Assembly: GCA_964406935.1 (NCBI GenBank) | Contig: CAYOTM010000001.1 | Span: 11,092-75,091, forward strand | DNA length: 64,000 nt | Reading direction: 5' to 3' | From: an uncultured Gammaproteobacteria bacterium | Lineage (GTDB): Bacteria; Patescibacteriota; Patescibacteriia; Patescibacteriales; UBA12465 | In this document: positions 1,126 to 62,172 of the stretch, piece by piece | Layout of the letters: each line of letters starts with the position of its first letter | Position numbering within the stretch: position 1 is the first letter of the stretch | Notes under the pieces: generated by a model | The model's database searches: none | Told to the model about the DNA's origin: nothing | The model's input: only the letters and a program-made list of their open reading frames with translations | Program-made: the position numbers and the translations under genes

Positions 1126-3573
1126 TTAATTTTCTAAATTATTATCCCCACCTTCTGAGTTATTCAAGGAAGAGTCGTTGTCGTCTAAATTAGTTTCTTC
1201 AGTTAAGGGAGAACTGTCAAGATTTTCTGAGTCAACTTGCTCGCCAGTCTCAATCACTGGAACCGGCTCGGGCTCTACTGGTAGAGCAGGGCCAATAATT
1301 GGATTTACTACTGATTCAGGTATTAAAGGTTCAACAATCGGTTCCTCAACTGGTGGAGTTTGACTGTCAATAATATTTTTCCATTCTAAATCAGCCGCAG
1401 AATCTGGTACAAATTTCAAACCACTAACCTCTGATAAATTATCAGCGGGGACCAAACTATTGATTCGTAAAAATTTATTAGACAGGGTATATAAATAATT
1501 ACCAATATATAAACTTCTTTTAACAGTATTATCAAAATAAGATAAACCGCGCCAAGAATCTGATCGACCATAAAGACCACCATCGGAATGATCAACCCGC
1601 CCTCTTTCCTCAAAGCGATCGTTAATAATACTAAAAACAATTGCTCCAGAAAAATCCAGGGACTGATAAAAATCGGAGCGTAGAGCTGTCGGAATGACTA
1701 ATAAATTTTTACTTAAACTAAATAAAAATGCTCGATGATCATCCAGGGCGATTGATTGACTGCCAGCTCCACCAAAAATATAAGCATCTAGTTCTCGCGG
1801 ATTATTAATATCTTGAACATCAAATAAAGACAACTTTAAACCACCCAAACGAACATTGCCATAAGGATCTAAAGTAGTATCGCGACCTAAGCCAATTAAT
1901 TTATTATCATCATAAGGATGCAAATAAGTGGAAAAACCAGGAATTTTTAATTCCCCTAAAACTTGGGGGCTTTTTGGATCACTAAGATCTAAGGCAAATA
2001 ACGGATCAATTTCTTTAAAAGTTACTAAATATCCACGGGGGCCCAAAAAGCGAACGGAATAAATTCTTTCACCCGGAGCAAGATTGCTGACTGACCCAAC
2101 AAGTTGTAGTTGATTATCTAAAATATAAACACCTGAGCTAGATTCTTGAGATTCTTGGAAGCGACTAAAACGACGATCTAGCGTTGTCGCTACTCGCAAA
2201 TGACCATTATACTCATCAAAAGAAAATTGATTTAAAACCCGACCAGGAATTTCACCACTGGCTTGGTGCTGAGACCCTTCTTTAGTGATCGCAATTTTAT
2301 GAATTAAGGTAGTTTGCCAACGATCAGCGACTTCTTGATATTTAGTTTTTAAACGCTCCTCTAGCAATTGTTCTAAACGGTAACGCTCATCACTTGATTG
2401 CTGATTAACAAAAGCTTCCAATACCTGATCAATTTTTAGTTTTTTTTCATGATTAGTTAGTAAAAAGGCGGGAGCTTGTTCAATGGCAACAATTTTTTCC
2501 TGCTCAGCCGGCGCCAAAAGAGGTGACAATACCGCAAATTTACTTTCTAAAATTAAATCATATTCGCTTAAATATTGCGTACCACTAATATAAATCGCTT
2601 CTTTAGAAACATATAAATTTTGAGCACCATTTAACAAATAAATCTGACTATCAACCGGGATTGTCTGATCTTGTAAGTTAATAATATTTAAAGAACTAAA
2701 CATTAATTGATCATAATCAATATCAAAATAAAAAACTTCCGGCGCAAAACAAGGGTTATCGCCAGTACAAGTATTGGGCAATAAACGACCCCCATCAACC
2801 AGGCGAGGAATCAAAGGCTCACCCTCAATATAATTACTATAATTATTTAAAAGCAAATAAACCTGGCCATCAATTAGGCGCGATTGGAAATAAGTACCTT
2901 CAAAGTTTAAATCGCGTAAAGTCTTGGGATTATTTTTATCGCTAATATCAAAAATTTTAAAAAAGGTATAAGGAGTTTGTCTTTTAAAGCTGCGGTAAAT
3001 ATCAGTGGCAATAATTTGCTCGTCACTGCCCATCACCGCTAAGCGGTCACCATCAATAAAAATATCAGACGGTCGTGAACGAAAAGAAATTTTTGACTCA
3101 ATTTTTAATTCTTCGGGAGGAAAGGCTTTAATAATATAAAGATCATTGTAAACTAGAGCATAAATATAGTTACCATCAGTTTTAATTAAATCAGCTTCAT
3201 CAACGCCGGCTACTTGAATATTAGTAGTAGAAAAATCTGAAGAACCTTCTTCTAGTTGTTGTTTCATGGCTGGGGCCGCCTCGCTAAAAACCATATCATC
3301 CATCATGACCATGTCGCCACGAAGATAATTCATCGCTGCCCCTTGATTAATTTTCCAAGAACTTAAAAAAGTTTGTAAGTCATTATAGTCAGTAAATTTC
3401 TGCAAACTACCATTAGGGGCCTCCAAACTAAAAATTTCCACCTCCCCAATTTGCGCTACTGGTGGTTTTGTCTCCGGCGTAATTGTCTTTGGTTTGCGAA
3501 AATTCAGCGAACAACCAGTCAGTAAAAAGGCGAGAATAAAAATCGACAAGATTAAAAATAATTTATTTTTCAT
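1126..3573 (-). CDS. large secreted lipoprotein, probable C-terminal beta-propeller, with Pro/Glu/Asp-rich low-complexity tail
   Basis: Signal peptide plus lipobox (LLTGC). 815 aa; body resembles the beta-propeller secreted-protein family (PF09826-like). C-terminus PVEPEPVPV...DDNDSSLNNSEGGDNNLEN. Confidence 0.5.
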   Translation of the reverse strand: MKNKLFLILSIFILAFLLTGCSLNFRKPKTITPETKPPVAQIGEVEIFSLEAPNGSLQKFTDYNDLQTFLSSWKINQGAAMNYLRGDMVMMDDMVFSEAAPAMKQQLEEGSSDFSTTNIQVAGVDEADLIKTDGNYIYALVYNDLYIIKAFPPEELKIESKISFRSRPSDIFIDGDRLAVMGSDEQIIATDIYRSFKRQTPYTFFKIFDISDKNNPKTLRDLNFEGTYFQSRLIDGQVYLLLNNYSNYIEGEPLIPRLVDGGRLLPNTCTGDNPCFAPEVFYFDIDYDQLMFSSLNIINLQDQTIPVDSQIYLLNGAQNLYVSKEAIYISGTQYLSEYDLILESKFAVLSPLLAPAEQEKIVAIEQAPAFLLTNHEKKLKIDQVLEAFVNQQSSDERYRLEQLLEERLKTKYQEVADRWQTTLIHKIAITKEGSQHQASGEIPGRVLNQFSFDEYNGHLRVATTLDRRFSRFQESQESSSGVYILDNQLQLVGSVSNLAPGERIYSVRFLGPRGYLVTFKEIDPLFALDLSDPKSPQVLGELKIPGFSTYLHPYDDNKLIGLGRDTTLDPYGNVRLGGLKLSLFDVQDINNPRELDAYIFGGAGSQSIALDDHRAFLFSLSKNLLVIPTALRSDFYQSLDFSGAIVFSIINDRFEERGRVDHSDGGLYGRSDSWRGLSYFDNTVKRSLYIGNYLYTLSNKFLRINSLVPADNLSEVSGLKFVPDSAADLEWKNIIDSQTPPVEEPIVEPLIPESVVNPIIGPALPVEPEPVPVIETGEQVDSENLDSSPLTEETNLDDNDSSLNNSEGGDNNLEN

Positions 3574-3684: not shown

Positions 3685-5259
3685 TTAATTGTTTTTTTGA
3701 CTAAAATAACAGCCACAAAATTTTTGTAAATACCAACCCTTAGCTTTAGCAAAATTATAGGAGCGACGAAAACCATCGTTGGCTTGAAAATCAATATCAA
3801 GAAATTTAAGCTGATAATCTTGGGCTAACTGCTTGCCAATATTTTTTAAAGCCTGACTGTCTTTATAAGGACTAACCAACAAGCTACTACCAAAATAACC
3901 AAAACCCTGAGCCTTGGCTAGTTTAGCAGTTTTAGCTAAACGATCGCGATAACATAAACGGCAACGCTCCCCTCGTTCCAGATCTGCTTCATGGCCCTGG
4001 ACTAATTGTTGCCAAGGAGCCGGATCATAGGGTTCAATAATTAAATTAAAATTGTATTCATGGGCCGCCGCCTCAACCGCCTGCAAGCGCTTGTCATATT
4101 CTTCCTGAGAAACTAAATTAGGATTATAAAAATACCAAGTTAATTTAAACTCCTTATTTAATTTTTCTTTACTAAAATAACTAGCGCAGGGAGCGCAACA
4201 AATATGAAATAATAAGCTCGGTCGTTTATCAACATAATAAGAAAAATAAATAACAATCCCTAGCATTAATAAAAACAAGATTAATAAAGCTAAAATTTTC
4301 CCCTGACTTTGGAGGAATAAACCACTAATTCCAAAAAATATTGCTAGACCATAATAAAATAGAGCGGTCTGACGCTGACTAAAACCAGAGTCTAGCAGGC
4401 GATGATGAAGATGTTGACGATCAGCAAATCGCAAGGGATTTTTCCCAGCCTTTAAGCGTCGAATAATTGTCCAAGCAACATCTAAGGCGGGCAGACCAAT
4501 AATTAATAAAGTGATGGCAATCTTAGCGCCCGAAATAATCGCTAACACTCCCAAGCTATAACCAACCAGTAAAGATCCTCCGTCTCCTAAAAAAACTGAG
4601 GCTGGAAAAAAATTAAATAATAAAAATCCTAAACAGGCAGCACTAAAAATTAAAGCGGCTAAAGCAATGTCTGGTTGATAATAAGGAGTTAATAAAGTAA
4701 ATAGAAAAATGATAAACGCCCCAATTGTTCCTAGGCCGGTAACTAAGCCATCAATCCCATCTAGTAACTTAGTGGTATACATCATGCCTAGCAACCAAAT
4801 AATAATAATAGCGGAGCTTAGCCAATTAATATTCTCTAAAGAAATGACTCCACCTCCCGGATTACTCAGGCGAGCAATTTCTACCCCACCTAATAAAACA
4901 GCAATAATTGCTAACAAAGGAAAAATAATTTGCTGCCAAGGAGATAATTTAAAACGATCATCTAAAGTGCCGCCAATCATTAAAATTAAAGCCCCGATTA
5001 AAAATCCCAGCCAATGACGATAATCAAGGTCGCCAGCAATCAACTGAGGGGTCACTAAAATCAACCCAATTAAAAAAGCCAAAAAAATCGCCCAACCACC
5101 CCCCAAAGGAATCGCTTGGCGATGAATTTTTCGCTGTTTATCGGGAAAATCTAACAATTTAAAACGCAAAGCTAATTGTCGCCAAAAAACAGTAAAAATA
5201 GCAGAAACTGCTAATGTTAGGAAAAAATATAAGAGATATAGGTAATTAAACATAGGCAA
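3685..5259 (-). CDS. fusion protein: N-terminal GT4 MraY/WecA-family polyprenyl-phosphate N-acetylhexosamine-1-phosphate transferase (about aa 1-340) plus C-terminal QueH-like (DUF208, epoxyqueuosine reductase family) domain (about aa 345-524)
   Basis: N-part: about 10 TM helices with the motifs LDDRFKL, LDGIDGLVTG and VFLGDGGSL of MraY/WecA transferases. C-part: LLFHICCAPCASYF and KFCGCYFS, the two cysteine motifs of DUF208/QueH. Continuous reading frame across the junction with no internal start. Confidence 0.75.
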   Translation of the reverse strand: MPMFNYLYLLYFFLTLAVSAIFTVFWRQLALRFKLLDFPDKQRKIHRQAIPLGGGWAIFLAFLIGLILVTPQLIAGDLDYRHWLGFLIGALILMIGGTLDDRFKLSPWQQIIFPLLAIIAVLLGGVEIARLSNPGGGVISLENINWLSSAIIIIWLLGMMYTTKLLDGIDGLVTGLGTIGAFIIFLFTLLTPYYQPDIALAALIFSAACLGFLLFNFFPASVFLGDGGSLLVGYSLGVLAIISGAKIAITLLIIGLPALDVAWTIIRRLKAGKNPLRFADRQHLHHRLLDSGFSQRQTALFYYGLAIFFGISGLFLQSQGKILALLILFLLMLGIVIYFSYYVDKRPSLLFHICCAPCASYFSKEKLNKEFKLTWYFYNPNLVSQEEYDKRLQAVEAAAHEYNFNLIIEPYDPAPWQQLVQGHEADLERGERCRLCYRDRLAKTAKLAKAQGFGYFGSSLLVSPYKDSQALKNIGKQLAQDYQLKFLDIDFQANDGFRRSYNFAKAKGWYLQKFCGCYFSQKNN

Positions 5260-5351
5260 ACTAGGATAAATTAGTTGACAATTAGGGATATTTAGCCTAA
5301 AATAAGAGGACGTTCAAAAATAATGTTCATTTTAAAAAAGGAGGTCTATGT

Positions 5352-5726
5352 ATGAAGAAAAGAAACAGGCGGTTGCAACCGCTAATTGAGGCGTTTGAGA
5401 ATAATCAAAGCGCAGATTTTATTGAAAAACTCAACCCCCAAGACGTAGGGAATTTATTAAATCTGATCGAGCTCCGGGAAAAAGAGCTCACCAGCCATTA
5501 CCACCTAATGAGGGGAAAAGTTCACCAAGAAATCAGCACTCAACATGTTCTTAAATCGGCTTTGGCAACGATTGCCGACATTGAGCTCGCTCAATTTGAG
5601 CAGTTAGCGGCCATCAGGCAACTGCTTGTTGTAAAAAAACAAGCAAACCAAGAAAGAAAACAAGAAAGAATCCTCATGTATGAGGAAAATCAGCAAACAC
5701 CGCTGAGAATGGCTGCCGGCGCCTAA
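5352..5726 (+). CDS. hypothetical protein, predicted coiled coil
   Basis: 124 aa, charged and Gln/Glu-rich. A terminator follows. Confidence 0.4.
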   Translation: MKKRNRRLQPLIEAFENNQSADFIEKLNPQDVGNLLNLIELREKELTSHYHLMRGKVHQEISTQHVLKSALATIADIELAQFEQLAAIRQLLVVKKQANQERKQERILMYEENQQTPLRMAAGA

Positions 5727-5753
5727 GCTAAGGCCCGTGCCCCAAAACAACCA

Positions 5754-5782
5754 GAAGGCTTCAAGCAATTGAAGCCTTTTTT
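5754..5782 (+). terminator. rho-independent terminator
   Basis: AAGGCTTCAA-gcaa-TTGAAGCCTT followed by TTTTTC. Confidence 0.6.
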
Positions 5783-5787
5783 TCATT

Positions 5788-8469
5788 TTATAGATCCCTC
5801 CCTTTTTCTACTTCAATTTCTCCGCGATAATTAACAATCACCGTATCACGACGCTTGAGCTCACCAGCTAATAATTTATTAGCAATAATATTTTCTACTT
5901 TGTCTTGCAATAAGCGACGCAACGGGCGAGCGCCAAATTTGGGATCATAACCTTGACGGGCTAACTCTAAAACACCGTCACGATCAGCTCGCATAAATAA
6001 ACCCTTGCTAGTAATGTTTTGCTTAATATTTTTCAACATCAAGGTAGCAATTCTAAAAATATGATCTTCAGATAAAGGAGTAAAGACAATAATCCCATCA
6101 AAACGATTAATTAATTCCGGGCGCATATGTTGATTTAAGCGATTATCAACTAATTCTTGTCTGATTTCTTCAACTTTCGTATTTTTCTTAATTTCCTCTT
6201 GAATGTAGTTGGCTCCGATATTAGAAGTGGCGATAATAATTGATTCGGTAAAACTAATCGTTCTTCCCTGACCATCAGTTAAGCGTCCGTCATCAAGCAT
6301 TTGTAAAAATAAATTTAAAATATCGGGATGCGCTTTTTCAATTTCATCAAATAAAATTAGGGCAAAAGGTTTTTTACGCACCGCTTCGGTTAAATGACCC
6401 AAAGTACCGTCAACATCACCAATCATTTTGCGAACACTCTCCGGGCGCTGATATTCACTCATATCAATCCGGACCATATATTGTTCGCCGCCAAAGTAAA
6501 CCTCAGACACGGTTTTGGCTAATTCGGTTTTACCAACGCCAGTTGGCCCTAAAAAGAGAAAGCTAGCAATTGGCCGTTTATTGTCTTTAATGGCTGCTCG
6601 CGAGCGCCTTAAACTAGCTGCCACTGCCTTGACAGCTTCTTCTTGACCAATCATGCGACGATGAATTTCCTCTTCTAAATTTAATAATTTAACACTTTCA
6701 TCTTCGGTAATTTTTTGAATCGGGACACCAATTAAGTCAGAAATTGCCGCCGACACTTCCTCGCCCTGACATAGGGCTCGCTGAGGATCGTGACGAGCTG
6801 CTTTAGCGGAAATGATGGCGGCTGATCGTAAAAGATCAATTGCCTTGGCGGGTAAAAATTTATCGTGTAAATATTTGACTGACAATTTAACCGCCTGATC
6901 AAGGGCGCTATAAGAAAAAAAGATACCGTGGTTGGCTTCAATGCTAGCCACTTTACTTTCTAAAATTTGAATTACCTGATTATGACTGGGCTCCGCAACG
7001 CCCACGGTAGTCATCGCTTCACCCAAGGCCTGCCCCTCAACATAACGAGAATAATTTTCCGAATTAACCGTCGCTAAACAATAAACATGCCGACGCGTTA
7101 AGGCCTCGGCTAAAACTTCCGATAAATCTAAGCTTTGTTCTTGGCCGGCCGTAATCCCAATAATATTTTCAATGTTATTAATATACAAAACGATATTGCC
7201 AGCCCGACTAGCTTCACTAATTGAACTAAGCATTCTTTCCTGAGAAACATTGGGATTAGCGCCACTGACTAAGCGAGAAATATCCAGTTCAACCAAGCGA
7301 CGATCTTTTAAAAATTTTGGCACTTCTTCGCTAACCATTAATTGGGCGATACCTTCGACAATCGTTCGTTTGCCAACACCAGTATGTCCAACTAGTAAAA
7401 TTCCTGTTTGACCACTAGCCAAAGATTCAAAAACAGAATCAATTTCTTGTTGACGACCGACACAAAATTCTAAACGACCATTTTTAGCTGCTAAGGTTAA
7501 GTCATGTGAAAAGTGATCTAGGGTGGGTGTAGCAATCGCCGTATAGGCACGATTCATGCCGCTTGATGGTTTAAAAGCCGCTAGCTTCCGCCAAGAACGT
7601 AAACGATCTAACATTTTTTCATTGGTAAAGGCCCAAGCGACCACATTTTTTAACTTATCTTCATCAAGCTCTAAATCATACAAAATATCGGCTAATAATT
7701 TATCTTGAGACCAGCAAAAGGCCAAGAGATTAACTGGATTAACCGCTGGCTGACGCCGCCTAACTGTTTCTTGAAAAGCAAAAATTAATAATTCCTGTAA
7801 TTTATCAGACCACTTTAGTTTACCAGTAAATTCTTGAGGATCATTAATATTTAAATGTTTATCTAATTTAGTTACTAAGTCAGGAGCAGAAATGCCTAAG
7901 CGAACAAATAAAGCTTGGACTTCTTTATTTTTTAACAAAGCTCTAAATAAATGCAAAACACCCACTTCATTTTGTTTTAAACGATTAGTAAGCAGCCAAG
8001 CATCTTCTAAAACAATATCGGCCGCCTGACTATAGGCTTGACTAACATTATAGTCAATTAATTTACTGTTTAAGGGAACATCATCTTGATTAAATGGTTT
8101 GTGATGAATTTTATTAATCGCGGCCTGCTCTTCGCTTTGACGATAAATAAAAAAGAGGGCAAAGGACCAAGAAAGGAGAAACCATAAAACTAGTGGGTGG
8201 GGCTGTCGCCAAAACATTAAAAGTTCCCGGGGATCAAGTTGAATACTTTGGGTTTGTAAAAACAACCAAATAAGTAAAGCTAGCCAACCAGAAATTGCTA
8301 ACCCTAAAGAAATTTTTTTAATTAATTTATCAAGTTGGCGACGGCTACGAATTAAGACAATAAAAGCTAAGCTCAAATCTAACTTCCAATACAAAAAATG
8401 TTGACGCCAATTTAGACCCCAGTGATTACTCTCAGCTTGATGATAAAATTTAATCTCCACCTCATCCAT
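5788..8469 (-). CDS. membrane-anchored Hsp100/Clp-family AAA+ protein (ClpB/ClpC paralog) with a degenerate first nucleotide-binding domain
   Basis: 893 aa: 2-3 N-terminal TM helices, Clp_N-like repeats, then NBD1 with GHTGVGKR (Walker A Thr to Arg) and VLYINNIEN (Walker B DE to NN), then an intact NBD2 ([32 protein letters not shown]). No M-domain coiled coil and no IGF/LGF ClpP-docking loop. Confidence 0.8.
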   Translation of the reverse strand: MDEVEIKFYHQAESNHWGLNWRQHFLYWKLDLSLAFIVLIRSRRQLDKLIKKISLGLAISGWLALLIWLFLQTQSIQLDPRELLMFWRQPHPLVLWFLLSWSFALFFIYRQSEEQAAINKIHHKPFNQDDVPLNSKLIDYNVSQAYSQAADIVLEDAWLLTNRLKQNEVGVLHLFRALLKNKEVQALFVRLGISAPDLVTKLDKHLNINDPQEFTGKLKWSDKLQELLIFAFQETVRRRQPAVNPVNLLAFCWSQDKLLADILYDLELDEDKLKNVVAWAFTNEKMLDRLRSWRKLAAFKPSSGMNRAYTAIATPTLDHFSHDLTLAAKNGRLEFCVGRQQEIDSVFESLASGQTGILLVGHTGVGKRTIVEGIAQLMVSEEVPKFLKDRRLVELDISRLVSGANPNVSQERMLSSISEASRAGNIVLYINNIENIIGITAGQEQSLDLSEVLAEALTRRHVYCLATVNSENYSRYVEGQALGEAMTTVGVAEPSHNQVIQILESKVASIEANHGIFFSYSALDQAVKLSVKYLHDKFLPAKAIDLLRSAAIISAKAARHDPQRALCQGEEVSAAISDLIGVPIQKITEDESVKLLNLEEEIHRRMIGQEEAVKAVAASLRRSRAAIKDNKRPIASFLFLGPTGVGKTELAKTVSEVYFGGEQYMVRIDMSEYQRPESVRKMIGDVDGTLGHLTEAVRKKPFALILFDEIEKAHPDILNLFLQMLDDGRLTDGQGRTISFTESIIIATSNIGANYIQEEIKKNTKVEEIRQELVDNRLNQHMRPELINRFDGIIVFTPLSEDHIFRIATLMLKNIKQNITSKGLFMRADRDGVLELARQGYDPKFGARPLRRLLQDKVENIIANKLLAGELKRRDTVIVNYRGEIEVEKGRDL

Positions 8470-8473
8470 AAGT

Positions 8474-8914
8474 TTAGGCTAATAATTGTTCATAAATTGC
8501 CCAAGCTAAAGCTAGGGGCCAGGCAATCCATAAAATAACCAAAATTAAACAAGCGATTAACCAGGCGAGTAAAATAAAGGTACGGGCAACAATTTGTACT
8601 AAGCGAACCAAGAAACTAATAAGTCGACCAGTGATATCAAATTGACCATACATCGGGACAAAAATATTTTTGATCCACACCCAGACCCCTAAAGAATAAA
8701 ACTGATCTTGCCAAAAATAAAAAATTCGTTTGGAAAAACGAAGTAAGCCGGTGCTATACCACCAGACTGGAAAATATAAAAATTGACCAACGACACCCGC
8801 TAATAAAGAAAAACGGGTGGTAAAATAATTATCAGACTTCATACTTAAATAGTATACCACAAAAAGACTAGAGGATAAATATAAAAAAATTATTATTGCC
8901 CAATAATTAAACAA
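8474..8914 (-). CDS. small Trp-rich membrane protein co-transcribed with the Clp paralog
   Basis: 146 aa with 4 predicted TM helices. Its stop lies 5 bp before the Clp-paralog start. Confidence 0.5.
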   Translation of the reverse strand: MFNYWAIIIFLYLSSSLFVVYYLSMKSDNYFTTRFSLLAGVVGQFLYFPVWWYSTGLLRFSKRIFYFWQDQFYSLGVWVWIKNIFVPMYGQFDITGRLISFLVRLVQIVARTFILLAWLIACLILVILWIAWPLALAWAIYEQLLA

Positions 8915-17243: not shown

Positions 17244-18521
17244 CTAAGATGATAACTGTTTTTGAGAAATAGTTAATAGTTGTCCGACTTTAATTTTTGA
17301 TTTTTCTTCAGCGGTAATTTTAAAAGATAAAGGAAAATAAAATTCACTCCGAGAACGAATCACACTTCCCTGAATATCTTCCACAATTACCGTAAATTGA
17401 GAAAACTTCTTAAATATTTGAGCCTGATATTTAGCTTCTAGATCTAAAGACAAACTTCTTAATTCAAGAGACCTGTCTTTTTTTATTTTAGCAGAAACTT
17501 GATTGACCAAACTAAAAGCCGGAGTTTTAGGATGGGCTGAGAAAGGAAAAACATGAACTTTGCTAAAAGCAATTTTCTTAGCCAATTGATAGGTTTTTTT
17601 AAAATCAGCCGCAGTTTCTCCGGGAAAGCCAACAATAATATCAGTACTTAGGGCAATCTCGGGCATTAATTGACGAATTTTTTTCACCCGATCTTGAAAA
17701 TATTTTACTGAATAAGGACGCTTCATCGCCTGTAAAATTTGGTCACTGCCTGATTGCAAGGAAATATGAAGATGGCGACACAAACGACCACGAGAACTGG
17801 CTATTAACTTTAACAACTGATCATCGACCTCATTAATTTCAATCGAACTTAAACGAAAACGAGCCCCAGGAACTTCCTTTAGTAATTGTTTAAGTAAACC
17901 AACTAAATTAACTTTTTTCTTGACTGATTTGAAGTCTTGTCCATAACGACCTAGGTGAATCCCACACAAAACAATTTCTTGCCAACCATTCTTAGAAGCC
18001 TCTTTAGCTTCTTTAATTATCTCTTGAGACAAGCGACTACTCAGCCTTCCCCGGGCATAAGGAATAATACAATAAGTACAAAATTGATTACAGCCATCAG
18101 CAATTTTTAAAAAATAACGAGCCTTATCATTCGATACTAAATCATATGACGAATTTAAACCCTTAACTGACCAAAGAGGACTTGATTTTTTCTTAGTTAA
18201 ATTTAATAAATGACGACTCAGGGAAATTAAATTGCCAGTTTCCCAAACCAGATCGACTGGCAATTTTTTAGCCTCCGGATAAGTAGCTGGCCAGCAACCA
18301 AAAATCGCTATCTTAGCTTGAGGATGTTTTTTTTGTAAAAATTTCCAGACCTGCCTATCCTTACGAATGGCTGTCTGAGTCACCGCGCAAGTATTAATAA
18401 TTAACCATTCAGGATTTACTTGATTTTCTTGCCAACCCCGTTTTAACAGTAATTTCTTTAAATAAGAAGAGTCGTATTGATTTACTTTGCAGCCTAAAGT
18501 TTTAATTAAAAATTGAGACAT
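17244..18521 (-). CDS. radical-SAM methylthiotransferase of the MiaB/RimO/MtaB family (second paralog; MtaB- or RimO-like)
   Basis: N-terminal MTTase domain (KTLGCKVNQYDS), radical-SAM CNQFCTYCIIPYARG, C-terminal TRAM-like region. Confidence 0.8.
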   Translation of the reverse strand: MSQFLIKTLGCKVNQYDSSYLKKLLLKRGWQENQVNPEWLIINTCAVTQTAIRKDRQVWKFLQKKHPQAKIAIFGCWPATYPEAKKLPVDLVWETGNLISLSRHLLNLTKKKSSPLWSVKGLNSSYDLVSNDKARYFLKIADGCNQFCTYCIIPYARGRLSSRLSQEIIKEAKEASKNGWQEIVLCGIHLGRYGQDFKSVKKKVNLVGLLKQLLKEVPGARFRLSSIEINEVDDQLLKLIASSRGRLCRHLHISLQSGSDQILQAMKRPYSVKYFQDRVKKIRQLMPEIALSTDIIVGFPGETAADFKKTYQLAKKIAFSKVHVFPFSAHPKTPAFSLVNQVSAKIKKDRSLELRSLSLDLEAKYQAQIFKKFSQFTVIVEDIQGSVIRSRSEFYFPLSFKITAEEKSKIKVGQLLTISQKQLSS

Positions 18522-33335: not shown

Positions 33336-34679
33336 ATGACTAATAATTTGGGGAAATTAATTGTGATTGACGGCACTGATGGCGCTGGTAAAACTACCCA
33401 GCTAAAATTATTGCGAGAAACTTTAGAGTACCAAGGCTACCAAATAGAGGAGGCTGATTTTCCCCAATATAATACCAAATCAGCTGGCTTGGTTGAAGAA
33501 TATTTGTCTGGTAAATATGGCGACTCAAAAAGTGTAACCGCCTATCAGGCTGCGATTTTTTATGCAGCTGATCGCTATGACGCTAGCTTTCAAATTAGAC
33601 AATGGCTAAAGGAAGGTAAAATTGTTTTATCTAATCGTTATGTTTCTTCGAGTCTAGGCCATCAAGGAGGAAAAATTGATAATCCCCTAGAGCGTCGTTT
33701 ATTTTTTAATTGGCTATATGATTTAGAATACAAAATTTTTAATCTCCCGCGACCCGATTTATCTTTAATTCTTTATTTAGAGCCAGAAATTGCTCAACAA
33801 TTAGCCAAAGAAAGACAGCGAGAAGACTGGAAAGGAAAAACTAAAGATATTCACGAAGACGATCTCAATCATTTGAAAAAGGCCGCTCAAATTTTCTTAG
33901 AAGTAGCCGACACTTTTCCCGACTTTCGCCTAATTCGTTGTAGTCACCACGGACAAATTTTAAGTCGCAGTGATATCCACTATTTAGTTGGCTTACAAGT
34001 AGCCAAAATTTTAAATGGTCAAAAAACAGTAGCTAAAAATAATTGGCAAGCAGTCGGTAATATCTTAATCAATAACAATGGCATGGTAAATTACGACAGT
34101 AAAATAATTGCTGTTAAAAAAAACATTGAAAATATTAATGCTCCCACAATTAATTCAACCCTTGACTTGGAAGAAGTGATCAAACAATCAAATGAGGAAC
34201 AAATTATTGAAAAACCGACCGACCAAACTATTAACCCCTCGTCAGAAAATAATTCTTTATCTTTAAAATTTGAAAAAATAGTCCCCCAAGCTAAAACGCC
34301 TGAGCGGGCTCATCCTGGTGATGCCGGTCTGGATTTATTTGCAAGTGATAATTATTCCATCCCTCCTTATGGACAGGCCTTAATTCAAACTGGCCTTAAA
34401 TTAGCAATTCCTTCGGGCTACGTTGGTCTAATTTGGGATAAAAGCGGACTCGCTAGCCAAGGTTATACTACAATGGGCGGTGTAATTGATGAAAATTATC
34501 GAGGAGAAATTAAAGTAATCTTTAAAAATTTAAGTGAAGATATTGTTAATATTCAAGCTGGCCAAAAAATTGCGCAACTCCTCATTCAAAAAGTTGAAAT
34601 CCCTGATATTATTGAAGAAAAAGTCGAAATTAATAGCCCACGAGGGGATCAAGGATTCGGCAGCAGTGGCCAATTTTAA
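33336..34679 (+). CDS. tmk-dut: bifunctional fusion protein: thymidylate kinase (about aa 1-215) plus dUTP diphosphatase (about aa 300-447)
   Basis: Tmk: LIVIDGTDGAGKTTQ, DRY, LSNRYVSSSLGHQ. An ~80-aa Asn/Ser-rich linker. Dut: AHPGDAGLDL, GLIWDKSGLASQG, IDENYRGEIKVIF, PRGDQGFGSSG. Confidence 0.85.
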   Translation: MTNNLGKLIVIDGTDGAGKTTQLKLLRETLEYQGYQIEEADFPQYNTKSAGLVEEYLSGKYGDSKSVTAYQAAIFYAADRYDASFQIRQWLKEGKIVLSNRYVSSSLGHQGGKIDNPLERRLFFNWLYDLEYKIFNLPRPDLSLILYLEPEIAQQLAKERQREDWKGKTKDIHEDDLNHLKKAAQIFLEVADTFPDFRLIRCSHHGQILSRSDIHYLVGLQVAKILNGQKTVAKNNWQAVGNILINNNGMVNYDSKIIAVKKNIENINAPTINSTLDLEEVIKQSNEEQIIEKPTDQTINPSSENNSLSLKFEKIVPQAKTPERAHPGDAGLDLFASDNYSIPPYGQALIQTGLKLAIPSGYVGLIWDKSGLASQGYTTMGGVIDENYRGEIKVIFKNLSEDIVNIQAGQKIAQLLIQKVEIPDIIEEKVEINSPRGDQGFGSSGQF

Positions 34680-36304: not shown

Positions 36305-36337
36305 TAAAAAAAACCGATGTCTAAACATCGGTTTTTT
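36305..36337 (+). terminator. terminator after gatB (overlaps the miaA stop codon)
   Basis: ACCGATGT-ctaa-ACATCGGT followed by TTTTTG. Confidence 0.6.
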
Positions 36338-37313
36338 GAAAATCTTTAATCAGCTGACGAGCCTCAGAATAATTATTTACCCAATAAATTTTTTGACCTT
36401 GTTTTTGCCAACGCTTAAACCAAGTTTTCTGACGTTTGGCAAAACGATAAATAGCAGTCGTTAATTTTTCCACCATTTCCGGATAAGTCATTGACCCTTG
36501 CAAATAATAACTAACAAATCGATATTCCAGGCCAAAAGAAATTAACCGCTTAAAAGAAATTCCCTGCTGCTGAAGGCGTTTTACCTCCTCTATGAGTCCT
36601 TCTTTAGACAAACGTGTTTCCAGGCGCTGGCTAATTCTTTTTCTTAAAACTTCATCGGGCGCCTCTAGACCTAAAACTAAAAAATCATACGGCAAAGTTG
36701 TTGACTGTTTTTTAAATAAACCACCAGATTCAATAATTTCTAAATAACGAACTAGACGACGATGATTGTGGCGATCACTATTATTTAATTTTTTAGCAAA
36801 ACTCGGTTTAAGTTCAAGCAGTTTTTCTAAAAGCTCCTGACTACTTAAACTTTCAAGCTCACGACGACGCTGAAGATTGGGTTTAGCCGAGCTTAACTTA
36901 TAATTATTAACCACGGCCTGCAAATAAAGACCGGTGCCTCCGACCAGTAGAGGCAATTTATCGTTTTCGATAATCTTATCTAAGGACTTAAAAGCTAATT
37001 TTTGATAACGAGCTAAATTAAATTTTGTTTTTGGCGAAACAATATCAATCAAATGATAGGGCACTTTATTTTTACCTTGTCCGTATTCAGCTAAGTCCTT
37101 ACCACTGCCAATATCCATCCCGCGATAGACCTGGCGACTATCAGCCGAGATAATTTCACCAGCAAACTGCCGAGCTAGTTTTACGGCCAATGCGGTTTTT
37201 CCACTAGAGGTTGAACCTAAAATAACCACTACTAATTTTGGTCGAAAACCAGCTGATTTAACTACTTTTTCCCCTTGATTTAACCGACTGATTTTTCCTC
37301 TTGACTTTTTCAT
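36321..37313 (-). CDS. miaA: tRNA dimethylallyltransferase
   Basis: VVILGSTSSGKTALAVKLARQF, ADSRQVYRGMDIGSGK. Confidence 0.9.
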   Translation of the reverse strand: MKKSRGKISRLNQGEKVVKSAGFRPKLVVVILGSTSSGKTALAVKLARQFAGEIISADSRQVYRGMDIGSGKDLAEYGQGKNKVPYHLIDIVSPKTKFNLARYQKLAFKSLDKIIENDKLPLLVGGTGLYLQAVVNNYKLSSAKPNLQRRRELESLSSQELLEKLLELKPSFAKKLNNSDRHNHRRLVRYLEIIESGGLFKKQSTTLPYDFLVLGLEAPDEVLRKRISQRLETRLSKEGLIEEVKRLQQQGISFKRLISFGLEYRFVSYYLQGSMTYPEMVEKLTTAIYRFAKRQKTWFKRWQKQGQKIYWVNNYSEARQLIKDFQKTDV

Positions 37314-37373: not shown

Positions 37374-38696
37374 TCATAATGATGAGGTTTTTTTCTTTTC
37401 TAATAACTCCCCGCTGAGAATGAACTCTTTAACCTGAGTAATTTTTACTTCTACAAATTGGCCAATTAAGTTGGCTGATTTTTTAACTACTAGCGAATTA
37501 ATGATCACTGTTTTAAAACTAGAACTTTTTCCATAATATTGACCCTGTTTATTCTTAGCTTCAACTAGAATCTTAATCGTCTTCCCTAAATATCGCTGAT
37601 TATTTTTAAGGGCACTATTTCTCAAAATCGCCTCTAAAACCTGTTCGCGTCGTTTTTTTTCTAAACGATTAACATTATCCTTTAATTTCCAAGCGGCTGT
37701 TCCCGGACGAGGGCTGAATTGAGAAATATAAGCCATATCAAACTCTAATTCCTGAAAAATTTTTACTGTTTTTAAAAATTGAGACTTTGTTTCTCCGGGA
37801 AAACCAACAATCACATCAGTGGTGATAGCGATGCCTGGTTTAGCGCGACGAATTTTTTTAATTAAAGTTATAAAATCCTGGGCTGTATACTGACGATTCA
37901 TATTCGCTAAAACTTGATTATCTCCCGCCTGAAGCGCTAAGTGTAAATGATGACAAACCTTATCAGAATAGGCCATCACTTTAATTAAAGCCGGGCTCAA
38001 GTCTTTAGGATGACTAGAGCTAAAACGCAGCCAAAAATCTCCCGGAATCGCAATTAAATCTTGTAATAACTGAGGAAAATTTACTTGATCACTTTTATAG
38101 CTATTAACATTTTGAGCAATTAAATTAATTTCCCGATAACCCTGTTTAATTAATTTTTTAACCTCTTCAATAATCTCTTTAGCTGGACGATAAACTTCTG
38201 GACCACGAGCATAAGGCACCACACAATAAGCGCAAAAATTATTACAACCATTGCCAATCGGCACAAAAGCGCTAAAACTATTATTATGCTTGGGTTTAAT
38301 TTTTAAATATTTTTCTCCCTTAAGACGACTCTTAAGTTGTTGGTCAATATTAATAGCGGCTAGCTTAGTAGTTAATAAATTAAACAGATTAGGTAATTGG
38401 CTAATTGGTAAAAATAAAGTTACACGACCAGCTAAGCGACGCTGTACATCTAATCGATTAGCTAAGCAACCAGTAATAATTAAACGACCATTTTTATTTT
38501 TCTTTCTAATTTGATTAACCAAACCATACACCCGATCCTCAGCTGACTGCCGAATACCACAAGTGGTTAAAATCACCAAATCCGCTCGCTGATATTCCTG
38601 ACTAACAGTATATCCCCGAGCTTCTAAAAAAGCGGCTACCCGCTCACTATCAGCCTTATTCATTTGACAACCGATAGTAATAATATGATAAGTCAT
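37374..38696 (-). CDS. miaB: tRNA-2-methylthio-N6-dimethylallyladenosine synthase
   Basis: MTTase N-domain (TIGCQMNKADSE), radical SAM CNNFCAYCVVPYARG, TRAM domain; sits upstream of miaA. Confidence 0.85.
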   Translation of the reverse strand: MTYHIITIGCQMNKADSERVAAFLEARGYTVSQEYQRADLVILTTCGIRQSAEDRVYGLVNQIRKKNKNGRLIITGCLANRLDVQRRLAGRVTLFLPISQLPNLFNLLTTKLAAINIDQQLKSRLKGEKYLKIKPKHNNSFSAFVPIGNGCNNFCAYCVVPYARGPEVYRPAKEIIEEVKKLIKQGYREINLIAQNVNSYKSDQVNFPQLLQDLIAIPGDFWLRFSSSHPKDLSPALIKVMAYSDKVCHHLHLALQAGDNQVLANMNRQYTAQDFITLIKKIRRAKPGIAITTDVIVGFPGETKSQFLKTVKIFQELEFDMAYISQFSPRPGTAAWKLKDNVNRLEKKRREQVLEAILRNSALKNNQRYLGKTIKILVEAKNKQGQYYGKSSSFKTVIINSLVVKKSANLIGQFVEVKITQVKEFILSGELLEKKKTSSL

Positions 38697-61317: not shown

Positions 61318-62172
61318 TTATTTTTCATTATTATTTTCTAGTTCGGAAGCAACAATTACTTTAGCTGGTTTGAGCAAGCGACCATTCAATTTATAGCCAG
61401 GGGAAATTTCTTTAACCACTGCCCCTCCTTGTCCTTCAATTGCCTCCATAGTGTGATGATCAAATTGAGCACCAACGGTAGAAATTTCTTCAACTCCGTG
61501 ACTATTTAAAACTTCTTTAAATTGCCGTAAAACATGGTTAACTCCTGCCACCCAAGCATTATCCTGTTCAGCTGGCGGCAAGGAAGAAATTGATAATTTT
61601 AAATGATCATAAACGGGTAATAATTCATGCAAAAAATCATTTAAAGCAAACTTAGCAAATTCTTCTTTTTCTCGATTAGTTTTTTTCAATAAATTCTGAT
61701 AATCAGCTAAAGACCGCTGATATTTATCTTGATAATCTTCAGCTTGAACAGCTTGACAACTAAGCCAGTGCTTAATTAAATTGCTAGTCAAATCAGAAAT
61801 TTTTAAAGTAGTTAATTCTTGTTCATCTTTTAACCACCGATACCGCGTTTCATCCAACTTATCAGTCAATTTTTTATCATCAACGGCCACCGCAAAATTT
61901 AAAGAAATTAATGATTTATCTGACGAATAATCAGTAAGATTAAGATTATCTAAATTAGTGATAAATTCAATTTTTTCTGGCTTAAAACCAAAGTGCTCAG
62001 CAAAAATTCTATCAACTGCTTGTTCAATTGTTTCCCCTAACACAACCCGATCAGAGATTAATGACCAATCTTTATCTGCTTGATGATTTTTAGTTAATAA
62101 TACTTCTGGCTTATTATTATAAGGCAAAATATTAATAATTAACTGGGAATTTAAGTGTTTTTTTTCAATCAT
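61318..62172 (-). CDS. grpE: GrpE nucleotide-exchange factor with an N-terminal ~130-aa extension carrying a degenerate MutT-like Nudix box
   Basis: C-terminus FDHHTMEAIEG and GYKLNGRLLKPAKVIV are GrpE hallmarks. N-terminus LGETIEQAVDRIFAEHFGF against E. coli MutT GETPEQAVVRELQEEVGI. Confidence 0.8.
   Translation of the reverse strand: MIEKKHLNSQLIINILPYNNKPEVLLTKNHQADKDWSLISDRVVLGETIEQAVDRIFAEHFGFKPEKIEFITNLDNLNLTDYSSDKSLISLNFAVAVDDKKLTDKLDETRYRWLKDEQELTTLKISDLTSNLIKHWLSCQAVQAEDYQDKYQRSLADYQNLLKKTNREKEEFAKFALNDFLHELLPVYDHLKLSISSLPPAEQDNAWVAGVNHVLRQFKEVLNSHGVEEISTVGAQFDHHTMEAIEGQGGAVVKEISPGYKLNGRLLKPAKVIVASELENNNEK

What the first reader, a model, noticed from the sequence alone, without database searches (positions are those of the whole stretch)
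3685..5259. Fusion of a WecA/MraY-type lipid-carrier glycosyl-1-phosphate transferase with a QueH-like (DUF208) Fe-S domain
Residues 1-340 form a 10-TM MraY/WecA-family polyprenyl-phosphate HexNAc-1-P transferase (LDDRFKL, DGIDGL, LGDGGS motifs). Residues ~345-524 carry both cysteine signatures of DUF208/QueH (HICCAPC and FCGCYFS). The frame is continuous across the junction with no internal start. QueH is a cytoplasmic tRNA epoxyqueuosine reductase, and fusion to an envelope-precursor transferase is not an arrangement I know of. Either the DUF208 fold serves a non-tRNA role here, or it is tethered to the membrane alongside lipid-linked precursor synthesis. No other queuosine genes are visible in the window.
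Basis: partly seen in the sequence, partly recalled or inferred. Interest (0 to 1): 0.65.

Follow-up and report, generated by a model that had tools for sequence, protein, structure and literature searches.

The report
Membrane-anchored QueH fused to WecA-like transferase
One gene in this ultra-small (Patescibacteria) bacterium really does join a membrane enzyme that starts cell-envelope sugar chains to a cytoplasmic iron-sulfur enzyme that finishes a tRNA modification, but related genomes indicate it is two neighbouring genes that merged, so it is a curiosity and probably not a new pathway.

Summary
Window 3685-5259 (minus strand) is one 524-aa ORF. It has an 11-TM WecA/MraY-superfamily phosphoglycosyl transferase (PF00953), then a 3-residue linker, then a complete QueH domain (PF02677). 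The QueH domain keeps all seven Cys and nearly every family-invariant residue.

It is not a frameshift artefact. The best 120 homologue clusters all carry both domains, and 20 species-level Patescibacteria genomes have the intact fused ORF.

Related genomes explain its origin:
- Seven have the two halves as separate, abutting genes.
- Two close relatives lack QueH at the locus.
- One orthologous locus reads GT4 - DJ-1 - VanZ - QueH.
- The sister clade has DUF192 downstream of GT4 instead, and that pair is fused in one genome.

QueH is also fused elsewhere to VanZ, MiaA, CCA-adding enzyme, RNase HII, UDG and Amidase_3. The window itself has two more neighbour fusions (Tmk-dUTPase, NUDIX-GrpE).

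Best reading: a neighbour-gene fusion giving a bifunctional protein whose QueH half is still an epoxyqueuosine reductase, tethered to the cytoplasmic membrane face.

Unresolved: I could not show tgt or queA in any fusion-bearing genome, so a non-tRNA role is not excluded.

The architecture is visible in databases and inconsistently annotated. I found no paper describing it. Interest is modest.

The parts
3685..5259 (-). Whole fused gene, 524 codons plus stop (TTG start at 5259; alternative ATG at 5253)
   Evidence: both Pfam domains in one ORF; AF2 model mean pLDDT 90.5, pTM 0.80
4231..5259 (-). N-terminal WecA/MraY-superfamily polyprenyl-phosphate HexNAc-1-P transferase half (residues 1-343), 11 TM helices
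   Evidence: PF00953 96 bits; TIGR02380 WecA 119 bits over residues 13-340 but below its cutoff; MraY/DPAGT1 fold TM about 0.7; K+R 18 on 'in' loops vs 2 on 'out' loops
4957..4962 (-). Asp100-Asp101 of the LDDRFKL motif (cytoplasmic loop 3; Mg2+/catalytic motif of the superfamily)
   Evidence: Invariant in 67/67 and at least 98% of 121 fusion homologues. The functional role is from established knowledge of MraY/WecA.
4744..4761 (-). D167-GIDGL motif (MYTTKLLDGxDGL block)
   Evidence: Invariant across the fusion family
4228..4311 (-). TM11 (residues 317-344), the helix that brings the chain back to the cytoplasm. It is native to this GT4 subfamily.
   Evidence: AF2 helix 317-344. GT4-only orthologues L025, L027, L053 and L058 end just after the same helix.
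4219..4227 (-). Junction/linker (residues 345-347, KRP); no internal start codon
   Evidence: Split relatives have a stop plus 'MKKLLLH' at this point.
3694..4218 (-). C-terminal QueH (DUF208) Fe-S domain, residues 348-522, predicted cytoplasmic
   Evidence: PF02677 192 bits, full length; 7LC5 E=1e-25; Foldseek TM 0.90, rmsd 1.7 A
4186..4200 (-). C354-C355-A-P-C358 cluster-binding motif. C358 aligns with T. maritima D13.
   Evidence: 121/121 conserved
3952..3966 (-). R432-C433-x-x-C436 motif
   Evidence: 121/121 conserved
3709..3717 (-). C515-G-C517 motif. The preceding Y510-L511-Q512 has L where 92% of the family has R.
5788..8469 (-). Membrane-anchored ClpB-like AAA+ protein, the conserved upstream neighbour of this GT4 in all related lineages
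8474..8914 (-). 146-aa protein with no Pfam match, the conserved first gene of the block. In other lineages tgt lies immediately upstream of its orthologue.
1126..3573 (-). Secreted Beta-propeller (PF09826) lipoprotein, the conserved downstream neighbour. The YkuD gene that usually lies between it and QueH is missing here.

Best explanation
This is a neighbour-gene fusion that yields a bifunctional inner-membrane protein with two chemically independent activities.

1. Transferase half. The N-terminal 11-TM domain is a WecA/TagO-like polyprenyl-phosphate N-acetylhexosamine-1-phosphate transferase. It starts a lipid-linked envelope glycan on the cytoplasmic face of the membrane. This is inferred from family membership and intact catalytic motifs.

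2. QueH half. TM11 returns the chain to the cytoplasm. Three residues later a complete QueH domain begins. It binds a [4Fe-4S] cluster plus an adjacent iron through its seven conserved Cys, and it most likely still reduces epoxyqueuosine to queuosine at position 34 of tRNA(Asp, Asn, His, Tyr). This is inferred from conservation of the whole family signature and fold.

3. Origin. queH is a long-standing resident of a conserved Patescibacterial gene block (146-aa protein, ClpB-like, GT4, ..., queH, (YkuD), Beta-propeller, DUF5656, PDZ). In compact genomes with abutting or overlapping genes, loss of the GT4 stop codon merged it with the gene upstream. The event has been reversed or repeated. This is shown by comparison of loci.

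4. Consequence. The fusion tethers QueH to the membrane and fixes 1:1 co-expression, but needs no mechanistic coupling between the two reactions.
For: Both halves are intact and under purifying selection:
- Profile matches and PDB sequence matches.
- AF2 model with pLDDT 90.5 and fold matches to QueH 7LC5/7LC7/9DEU (TM 0.88-0.91) and to MraY/DPAGT1.
- All 7 Cys plus H352, N379, N381, E387, R391, E428, R432, R440, S463, P464, K466, Y510 and Q512 are conserved at 96-100% in 121 fusion proteins, matching the positions invariant in 131 other QueH representatives.

Topology puts QueH in the cytoplasm, where Fe-S assembly and tRNA are:
- 11 TM helices, with K+R 18 inside vs 2 outside.
- In the 731-779 aa variants QueH is followed by one more TM helix and then the extracytoplasmic L,D-transpeptidase YkuD.

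Origin from adjacent genes:
- Seven genomes have GT4 ending at a stop and QueH starting at its own ATG, from a 4-nt overlap to about 60 nt downstream.
- The orthologous locus L058 (GT4 57% identical) has GT4 - DJ-1 - VanZ - QueH as separate genes.
- L025 and L027 keep GT4 but lack QueH at the locus.
- The sister clade has DUF192 in the downstream slot, separate in L053 and fused in L037.
- YkuD is a separate downstream gene in 24 loci and fused in others.

QueH fuses with many unrelated partners: among 150 representatives VanZ 15, UDG 4, RNase HII 2, CCA-adding enzyme 2, GT4 2, MiaA 1, Amidase_3 1 and more. The tRNA enzymes MiaA and CCA-adding enzyme among the partners fit a tRNA role.

The window has two other neighbour fusions, Tmk-dUTPase and NUDIX-GrpE.

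The queuosine pathway exists in the phylum:
- Tgt is abundant in Falkow-, Uhr-, Buchanan- and Parcubacteria.
- QueA-Tgt-transporter cluster in Southlakia.
- Tight queA-tgt-queH clusters in contigs L083, L097, L092 and L096, whose QueH is 33-40% identical to the fused domain.

Literature: a survey found no case where tgt was lost while later queuosine genes were kept (PMC10723273). DPANN archaea have co-localised QueA-QueH-Tgt (PMC8204110).
Against: - No tgt or queA was found in the 64-kb window, or within 10 kb of the fusion in the fused-clade loci examined. Contig-length matching between the best-120 Tgt and best-120 fusion lists gave no shared contig. So the substrate-producing steps are not shown to exist in any fusion-bearing genome.
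- The cultivated Patescibacterium Southlakia has QueA and Tgt but no annotated QueH or QueG in the text held. QueH and the rest of the pathway are therefore not strictly coupled in the phylum.
- The 3-residue linker and the N-terminal position of the cluster-binding Cys put the active site close to the membrane, an odd place for a tRNA enzyme.
- QueH in this phylum is repeatedly joined to envelope-related membrane proteins (GT4, VanZ, TM-YkuD, TM-Amidase_3).
- One 92%-conserved family residue, the R of YRQ, is L in the window protein and non-R in 20% of the clade.
- Fused-versus-split polarity is poorly resolved, with bootstrap 0.4-0.55.
Confidence: 0.65

Rival explanations
1. Adaptive membrane localisation of a genuine queuosine step. 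The domain is still an epoxyqueuosine reductase, but tethering is selected for. Possible reasons are placing it next to a membrane-associated electron donor, next to uptake of salvaged queuosine precursors, or next to membrane-bound translation. On this view the fusion is more than a neutral accident.
For: - Two unrelated membrane anchors are used for QueH in the same superphylum: GT4 and VanZ. VanZ-QueH is the commonest architecture among the nearest representatives, at 15 of 150.
- The linker is very short and confidently modelled in the window protein, and VanZ-QueH sequences also run from the last hydrophobic segment into the QueH motif within a few residues.
- The fused state is retained across proteins only 50-67% identical.
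- These organisms salvage precursors: Southlakia has a queuosine-precursor transporter next to tgt and queA.
Against: - Seven genomes in the same clade run QueH as a soluble stand-alone protein.
- VanZ-QueH and GT4-QueH may trace back to one ancestral locus in which QueH simply lay downstream of membrane-protein genes, so the number of independent events is small.
- Many other partners are soluble.
- No electron donor or transporter gene is linked to the locus.
Confidence: 0.17
2. Functional coupling to envelope synthesis, meaning a non-tRNA role. The QueH-like Fe-S domain would either act on a membrane-proximal substrate (a nucleotide-sugar or a lipid-linked intermediate made or used by the GT4 half), or serve as a redox or iron sensor that gates initiation of the envelope glycan.
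For: - Persistent linkage to envelope genes in every lineage examined: GT4, VanZ, YkuD, Amidase_3, Beta-propeller lipoprotein, Peptidase_M23.
- No queuosine gene in the window or near any fused locus.
- The active-site end of QueH sits 3 residues from the membrane, on the same face as the GT4 active site.
- Relaxation at R511.
- There is a precedent for a queuosine enzyme with a second, cell-division role: QueE (PMC11142719, listed; abstract only read).
Against: - Every other family-invariant residue is kept, and the fold superposes on T. maritima QueH at rmsd 1.5-1.9 A, including the structures solved with GMP and with queuosine bound. Nothing indicates a remodelled pocket.
- GT4 exists without QueH in close relatives (L025, L027) and in the whole sister clade.
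- QueH exists unfused beside GT4, or separated from it by two genes.
- QueH partners elsewhere are unrelated to the envelope: UDG, RNase HII, MiaA, CCA-adding enzyme, HAD.
- No chemistry is known for this family other than reduction of oQ.
Confidence: 0.12
3. Sequencing or assembly artefact: a frameshift or lost stop codon in this one assembly joins two separate genes.
For: Separate adjacent genes do exist in some relatives. One relative, L051, has an obvious frameshift inside QueH.
Against: - The same continuous ORF is found in 120 of 120 best homologue clusters from four independent data sources, and in 20 species-level genomes.
- There is no stop or start codon at the junction in the window.
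- The junction is modelled confidently as helix-turn-strand.
Confidence: 0.01

Closest known systems
Thermotoga maritima QueH (PDB 7LC5, 7LC7, 9DEU), the DUF208/PF02677 epoxyqueuosine reductase
   Same: Full-length domain match (E=1e-25, about 30-36% identity) and the same fold (TM 0.90, rmsd 1.7 A). It shares the CC...C/D, RCxxC and CGC metal-binding signature and the NPN, SPxK and YRQ motifs.
   Different: - T. maritima QueH is a soluble 192-aa protein. Here the domain is the C-terminus of an 11-TM protein with a 3-residue linker.
- T. maritima has Asp (D13) where this protein, like about 90% of the family, has Cys358.
- L511 replaces the family Arg.
E. coli WecA, B. subtilis TagO and MraY (polyprenyl-phosphate N-acetylhexosamine-1-phosphate transferase superfamily, PF00953)
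   Same: The DDxxK, (N/K)xxDGxDGL, PAxxF(L/M)GDxGS and HHH-type cytoplasmic-loop motifs are present. The MraY/DPAGT1 fold is matched. It has 11 TM helices with a cytoplasmic C-terminus, which from my own knowledge of the literature is the topology reported for WecA.
   Different: - It scores below the NCBIfam equivalog cut-offs for both WecA (119 vs 326 bits) and MraY (56 vs 192 bits), so the sugar-nucleotide substrate is not assignable.
- It carries a C-terminal soluble enzyme domain, which neither WecA nor MraY has.
VanZ-QueH fusions of Patescibacteria (for example P0247, NCBI MCG2701148.1, named 'epoxyqueuosine reductase QueH' from Candidatus Falkowbacteria)
   Same: QueH sits at the C-terminus of a multi-TM protein with a linker of only a few residues. 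The QueH domain is 44% identical to the window's. In L058 the VanZ and QueH genes lie in the same syntenic block as GT4.
   Different: The membrane partner is a small VanZ-like protein with no known catalytic activity, not a glycosyl-phosphate transferase.
Canonical queA-tgt-queH gene clusters (found here in metagenome contigs L083, L097, L092 and L096; reported for DPANN archaea in PMC8204110)
   Same: The same QueH family, 33-40% identical, with all signature residues.
   Different: In those clusters QueH is a stand-alone gene physically linked to the two preceding pathway steps. In the fusion clade no queuosine gene is linked to it.
Other C-terminal fusions of the same GT4 orthologue: GT4-DUF192 (L037) and GT4-QueH-TM-TSP3-YkuD (P0071, P0087, L050)
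   Same: The same GT4 subfamily and the same upstream ClpB-like neighbour. In each case the fusion is to whatever gene lies immediately downstream.
   Different: The appended modules differ, and some of them are extracytoplasmic.

Membership tests
QueH / DUF208 (Pfam PF02677) | Profile match above the curated gathering score over the whole domain | tested here: met
   191.8 bits vs cutoff 23.5; profile positions 1-174 of 175
QueH / DUF208 (Pfam PF02677) | Conserved cysteine signature (CCxxC/D near the N-terminus, RCxxC in the middle, CxC at the C-terminus) that binds the [4Fe-4S] cluster and the adjacent iron | tested here: met
   C354, C355, C358, C433, C436, C515 and C517 are present and 100% conserved in 121 fusion homologues. 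Their role as metal ligands comes from the T. maritima structure as I recall it; that paper could not be read here.
QueH / DUF208 (Pfam PF02677) | QueH fold | tested here: met
   AF2 model compared with 7LC5: TM 0.90, rmsd 1.7 A over 181 columns
QueH / DUF208 (Pfam PF02677) | Other family-invariant residues (H, NxN, E, R, ExGxR, R, SPxK, YRQ) | tested here: met
   All are kept at 96-100% in the fusion clade except the R of YRQ, which is 80% R and is L in the window
QueH / DUF208 (Pfam PF02677) | Occurs in a genome that also encodes Tgt and QueA, which make its substrate, usually without QueG | tested here: inconclusive
   None are in the window or within 10 kb of the fusion in related loci. 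Tgt is common in the phylum, but same-genome co-occurrence could not be shown.
QueH / DUF208 (Pfam PF02677) | Catalyses epoxyqueuosine to queuosine in tRNA | not testable with these tools
   Needs complementation of an E. coli queG mutant, or an in vitro assay
Polyprenyl-phosphate HexNAc-1-P transferases (Pfam PF00953, MraY/WecA superfamily) | Profile match above the gathering score | tested here: met
   96.3 bits vs cutoff 27
Polyprenyl-phosphate HexNAc-1-P transferases (Pfam PF00953, MraY/WecA superfamily) | Cytoplasmic-loop catalytic motifs (DD, DGxDG, FLGDxGS, His-rich loop) on the cytoplasmic side of a polytopic membrane fold | tested here: met
   The motifs are present and invariant. All fall on predicted 'in' loops. 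MraY/DPAGT1 fold match.
WecA proper (NCBIfam TIGR02380) | Score at or above the curated cut-off | tested here: not met
   118.8 bits vs 326.05. WecA-like in length and topology, but not a member by this criterion.
MraY proper (NCBIfam TIGR00445) | Score at or above the equivalog cut-off | tested here: not met
   55.8 bits vs 192.05; PDB MraY sequences match only at E about 1e-5

The most novel reading that the evidence does not exclude
In this Patescibacterial clade the QueH-type Fe-S domain has been recruited to the envelope. Held 3 residues from the membrane on the same face as the transferase active site, it would either reduce a non-tRNA substrate connected with lipid-linked glycan synthesis, or act as an iron/redox sensor that gates initiation of that glycan. 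These genomes would then have lost tgt and queA. That would be the first non-tRNA function for the DUF208 fold, and a direct link between Fe-S status and cell-wall precursor synthesis in ultra-small bacteria.
Probability: 0.1. Interest if true: 0.7.

Novelty: new variant of a known kind. Interest (0 to 1): 0.3.

Why it matters
If the best explanation holds, there are three practical consequences:

1. Annotation. Hundreds of database entries are named either 'QueH' or 'UDP-GlcNAc:undecaprenyl-phosphate GlcNAc-1-P transferase' when they are both. Pathway reconstructions for Patescibacteria will therefore miss one activity or the other.

2. Genome evolution. This is a clean, well-sampled example of neighbour-gene fusion and fission in compact genomes. 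One locus shows the fused, split, separated and deleted states. It warns against reading functional coupling into every domain fusion in such genomes.

3. Enzymology. It shows that QueH tolerates, and perhaps benefits from, rigid membrane tethering. That is a natural starting point for asking what reduces its cluster in vivo.

If the minority reading were true, it would give the DUF208 fold a second function and tie iron-sulfur status to envelope synthesis.

Tried and rejected
1. Frameshift artefact. Rejected by recurrence of the fused ORF.

2. A YkuD domain inserted between the two halves, as the order of the Pfam list suggested. Rejected: the sequences show YkuD after QueH, behind an extra TM helix.

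3. Proving same-genome co-occurrence with Tgt by matching 'longest contig' lengths between the best-120 Tgt list and the best-120 fusion list. No shared contig was found. This is uninformative, because each list samples only a small part of the hits.

4. Walking along the contig that carries the unfused orthologous locus, using L058's CTP synthase as an anchor.

5. Looking beside Tgt on three long Patescibacterial contigs for QueA or QueH. None found, but this revealed the tgt - x - ClpB-like - GT4 block.

6. Metagenome scan with a Tgt profile. It found queA-tgt-queH clusters, but none on a fusion-bearing contig.

7. Literature. The primary QueH papers (Zallot 2017, Li 2021) are not held. The DPANN paper's family-by-phylum table is not held. 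No paper linking QueH to GT4 or VanZ was found. A 'VanZ' hit turned out to be an author name.

8. A preQ1 riboswitch as a proxy for queuosine metabolism in the window. None found.

9. The idea that TM11 might be a remnant of VanZ. Rejected: GT4-only orthologues already possess it.

10. Firm polarity of fusion versus fission. Bootstrap support was too weak to decide.
Full report
OBSERVATION.

Window 3685-5259 is a single ORF of 524 codons on the minus strand. It starts with TTG and has an ATG two codons later. Pfam finds PF00953 (Glycos_transf_4, residues 83-243, 96 bits) and PF02677 (QueH, residues 349-522, 192 bits, 174 of 175 profile positions). NCBIfam places the first 340 residues nearest WecA (TIGR02380, 119 bits), but well below the equivalog cut-off, and MraY scores lower still.

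There is no stop and no in-frame start codon at the junction.

The C-terminal 181 residues align end to end with Thermotoga maritima QueH (7LC5, E=1e-25). The N-terminal half aligns weakly with MraY structures.

An AlphaFold2 model built on 67 homologues is confident throughout (mean pLDDT 90.5, pTM 0.80). Its two halves superpose on QueH (TM 0.88-0.91, rmsd 1.5-2.3 A) and on MraY/DPAGT1 (TM about 0.7).

TOPOLOGY.

Hydropathy and the model both give 11 TM helices. The loops assigned to the cytoplasm carry 18 Lys+Arg against 2 on the outside, and all catalytic motifs lie on cytoplasmic loops. Helix 317-344 (TM11) is followed by three residues and then strand 1 of QueH, so the Fe-S domain is cytoplasmic and held tight against the membrane.

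There is independent support for this. Longer relatives (731-779 aa) continue after QueH with one more hydrophobic helix, TSP3 repeats and a YkuD L,D-transpeptidase, which is an extracytoplasmic enzyme. TM11 is native to this transferase subfamily, because GT4-only orthologues end just after it.

IS IT REAL AND RECURRENT?

Yes. The best 120 homologue clusters (55-67% identical, 513-567 aa, from NCBI, JGI, ENA and Logan) all carry both Pfam domains. The names given are Candidatus Falkowbacteria or Patescibacteria. NCBI calls them 'epoxyqueuosine reductase QueH', while JGI calls them 'UDP-GlcNAc:undecaprenyl-phosphate GlcNAc-1-phosphate transferase'.

A scan of one genome per species found 47 related loci. 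Twenty of them have the intact fused ORF. A frameshift artefact is excluded.

WHAT THE RELATED LOCI SHOW.

(a) Seven genomes (L007, L023, L024, L029, L033, L043, L045) have the two halves as separate genes in the same order. GT4 ends at a stop codon and QueH starts at its own ATG (MKKLLLHxCCAPCG), from a 4-nt overlap to about 60 nt downstream. L051 is a fused gene with a frameshift inside QueH.

(b) L025 and L027, whose GT4 is 58-61% identical to the window's, have ClpB-like, GT4 and Beta-propeller with no QueH at the locus.

(c) L058/L060 carry the orthologous block: GT4 57%, ClpB-like 50% and Beta-propeller 45% identical to the window's. The order there is ClpB-like, NifU, GT4, DJ-1, VanZ, QueH, T2SSE, Beta-propeller, DUF5656, PDZ, and VanZ and QueH overlap by 26 nt.

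(d) A sister clade (GT4 about 47% identical; Kerfeld-, Magasanik-, Buchananbacteria and others) has no QueH nearby. It has DUF192 directly downstream of GT4 instead. That gene is separate in L053 and ten other loci, and fused to GT4 in L037.

(e) YkuD is a separate gene immediately after QueH in 24 loci, is fused in others, and is absent from the window.

So this transferase gene repeatedly merges with whatever lies downstream of it, and QueH is simply the downstream gene in the window's clade.

A bootstrapped NJ tree of the GT4 halves separates the GT4-only clade from the QueH-associated clade (0.91) and places the unfused L058 with the QueH-associated clade (0.79). The internal order is weakly supported (0.4-0.55). 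I therefore claim only that fused and unfused states have interchanged more than once, not which came first.

IS THE QueH HALF STILL A QueH?

Across 121 fusion proteins, all seven Cys are invariant, and H352, N379, N381, E387, R391, E428, R432, R440, S463, P464, K466, Y510 and Q512 are conserved at 96-100%. These are the same positions that are invariant in 131 other QueH representatives. The GT4 motifs are equally conserved.

The only relaxation is the Arg of the YRQ motif. It is R in 92% of the family but in only 80% of the fusion clade, and it is L in the window protein.

The residue aligned with T. maritima D13 is Cys here, as in about 90% of the family.

The fused domain is 33-40% identical to stand-alone QueHs that sit in tight queA-tgt-queH clusters (L083, L097, L092, L096). 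That is within the range those proteins show with each other and with the VanZ-linked forms.

QueH IS A PROMISCUOUS FUSION PARTNER.

An exhaustive search with the QueH domain found 3,839 representatives at 50% clustering. Pfam matches among the best 150 were VanZ (15), UDG (4), RNase HII (2), CCA-adding enzyme (2), GT4 (2), HAD (2), methyltransferases (2), MiaA, alanine racemase, Amidase_3, YkuD, a radical-SAM enzyme and others.

VanZ-QueH proteins, which are also membrane-anchored, come from Falkowbacteria/Parcubacteria. The tRNA enzymes among the partners fit a tRNA function. The heterogeneity of the rest fits incidental neighbour fusion.

The window itself encodes two more apparent neighbour fusions: Tmk-dUTPase (33336-34679) and NUDIX-GrpE (61318-62172).

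QUEUOSINE CONTEXT.

The window has no tgt, queA, early queuosine genes, precursor transporter or preQ1 riboswitch. It does encode MiaA, MiaB and a second MiaB/RimO-like enzyme, so anticodon-loop modification is maintained.

Tgt is widespread in Patescibacteria. The cultivated Southlakia has QueA, Tgt and a precursor transporter clustered together, but no annotated QueH in the text held.

In many lineages the gene order is tgt, [146-aa protein], ClpB-like, GT4 (L037, L044, L046, L053, L065, L132 and others). The window has orthologues of the last three in the same order, but a divergently transcribed ClpB sits where tgt would be. The same block therefore carries a queuosine gene at its 5' end in some lineages and at its 3' end in the fusion clade. 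I read this as a possible remnant of an ancestral neighbourhood, not as evidence of function.

I could not show tgt or queA in any fusion-bearing genome. Contig-length matching, contig walking and a metagenome scan all failed to settle it. A published survey found no case of tgt loss with retention of later queuosine genes (PMC10723273), which makes their presence likely a priori.

MECHANISM.

Shown:
- One polypeptide with two intact, conserved catalytic domains.
- Eleven TM helices and a cytoplasmic QueH on a 3-residue tether.
- Origin from, and reversion to, adjacent genes.

Inferred:
- The N-terminal half transfers a HexNAc-1-phosphate to undecaprenyl phosphate to start an envelope glycan. 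UppP/BacA, MurA and a GT2 cluster in the window fit lipid-carrier-dependent synthesis.
- The C-terminal half reduces epoxyqueuosine-34 in tRNA.
- The two reactions are independent.

Rivals:
- Tethering is itself adaptive (0.17).
- The domain has an envelope-linked, non-tRNA role (0.12).
- Artefact (0.01).

COMPARISON AND NOVELTY.

Both halves belong to well-known families by profile, motif and fold. The transferase fails the equivalog cut-offs of WecA and MraY, so it is best called WecA-like.

The fused architecture is abundant in public data and automatically, though inconsistently, annotated. I found no paper that describes it. I rate it a new variant of a known kind, namely a membrane-tethered QueH.

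A specialist would find it a neat curiosity and an annotation trap, not a surprise. Interest 0.3. The reading that would make it important, a non-tRNA envelope-linked function, remains possible at about 10%. A profile search of one closed genome would decide it.

Noticed in passing
P0071, P0087, P0103, P0111 (731-779 aa); L050 9980-12319; L001 11581-12270: Triple fusions of GT4, QueH, a TM helix, TSP3 repeats and a YkuD L,D-transpeptidase exist. In 24 related loci the TSP3-YkuD protein is a separate gene immediately after QueH. The window lacks it: only 111 bp separate QueH from the Beta-propeller gene.
   Followed up: partly
P0242, P0247, P0249, P0254; L055 2594-3520; L058 9733-10564: VanZ-QueH, a 4-TM VanZ-like protein fused to QueH, is the commonest QueH architecture among the nearest representatives (15 of 150). 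It occurs in Falkowbacteria/Parcubacteria. In L058 VanZ and QueH are separate overlapping genes in the same block as GT4.
   Followed up: partly
L037 4313-5428; alignment A2 (12 Patescibacterial Tgt proteins): These Tgt proteins keep the catalytic DSGG(F/Y)Q and MFDCV motifs. They have no Cys where E. coli Tgt has its CxCxxC zinc motif (consensus ...SPINxxNLKKYSKAYLHHL...), and Asn where the E. coli His ligand would be. They appear to be zinc-site-less bacterial TGTs.
   Followed up: no
window 33336-34679 (+) and 61318-62172 (-): Two further apparent neighbour-gene fusions in the same window: thymidylate kinase-dUTPase (447 aa) and NUDIX-GrpE (284 aa).
   Followed up: no
window 5788-8469 (-) and 8474-8914 (-); L037 7267-10005; L053 11609-14663; L058 3761-6961: A ClpB-like double-AAA+ protein with hydrophobic N-terminal segments (and a Cys-rich N-terminal stretch in L037), preceded by a small protein with no Pfam match, lies immediately upstream of this GT4 in every lineage examined. 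This conserved block has no known function.
   Followed up: no
L037, L044, L046, L053, L064, L065, L071, L132: tgt lies 1-5 kb upstream of the orthologous GT4 in many lineages that have no queH nearby, while the fusion clade has queH downstream and no tgt upstream. The same block thus carries a queuosine gene at one end or the other.
   Followed up: partly
L037 10007-11590 vs L053 14664-16330: In the sister clade GT4 is followed by a DUF192 gene. In L037 the two are fused, with a TM helix between them.
   Followed up: partly
L083 2026-4861; L097 8950-11780; L092 3-2551; L096 2413-4883: Tight queA-tgt-queH clusters in uncultured metagenome contigs whose Tgt is about 50% identical to Patescibacterial Tgt. 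The host taxonomy was not determined.
   Followed up: no
window 5260-5787: The gap between the ClpB-like gene and the fusion gene is unusually long at 528 bp; the two genes abut in L003. It holds a 124-aa opposite-strand ORF (5352-5726) with no Pfam match, a bidirectional terminator-like hairpin (5753-5780), and a promoter-like site on the gene's strand (5356 to 5329).
   Followed up: no
window 17244-18521, 36321-37313, 37374-38696: MiaA, MiaB (with a TRAM domain) and a second UPF0004/radical-SAM enzyme of the MiaB/RimO type are encoded in the window, so Fe-S-dependent tRNA anticodon-loop modification is retained in this reduced genome.
   Followed up: no
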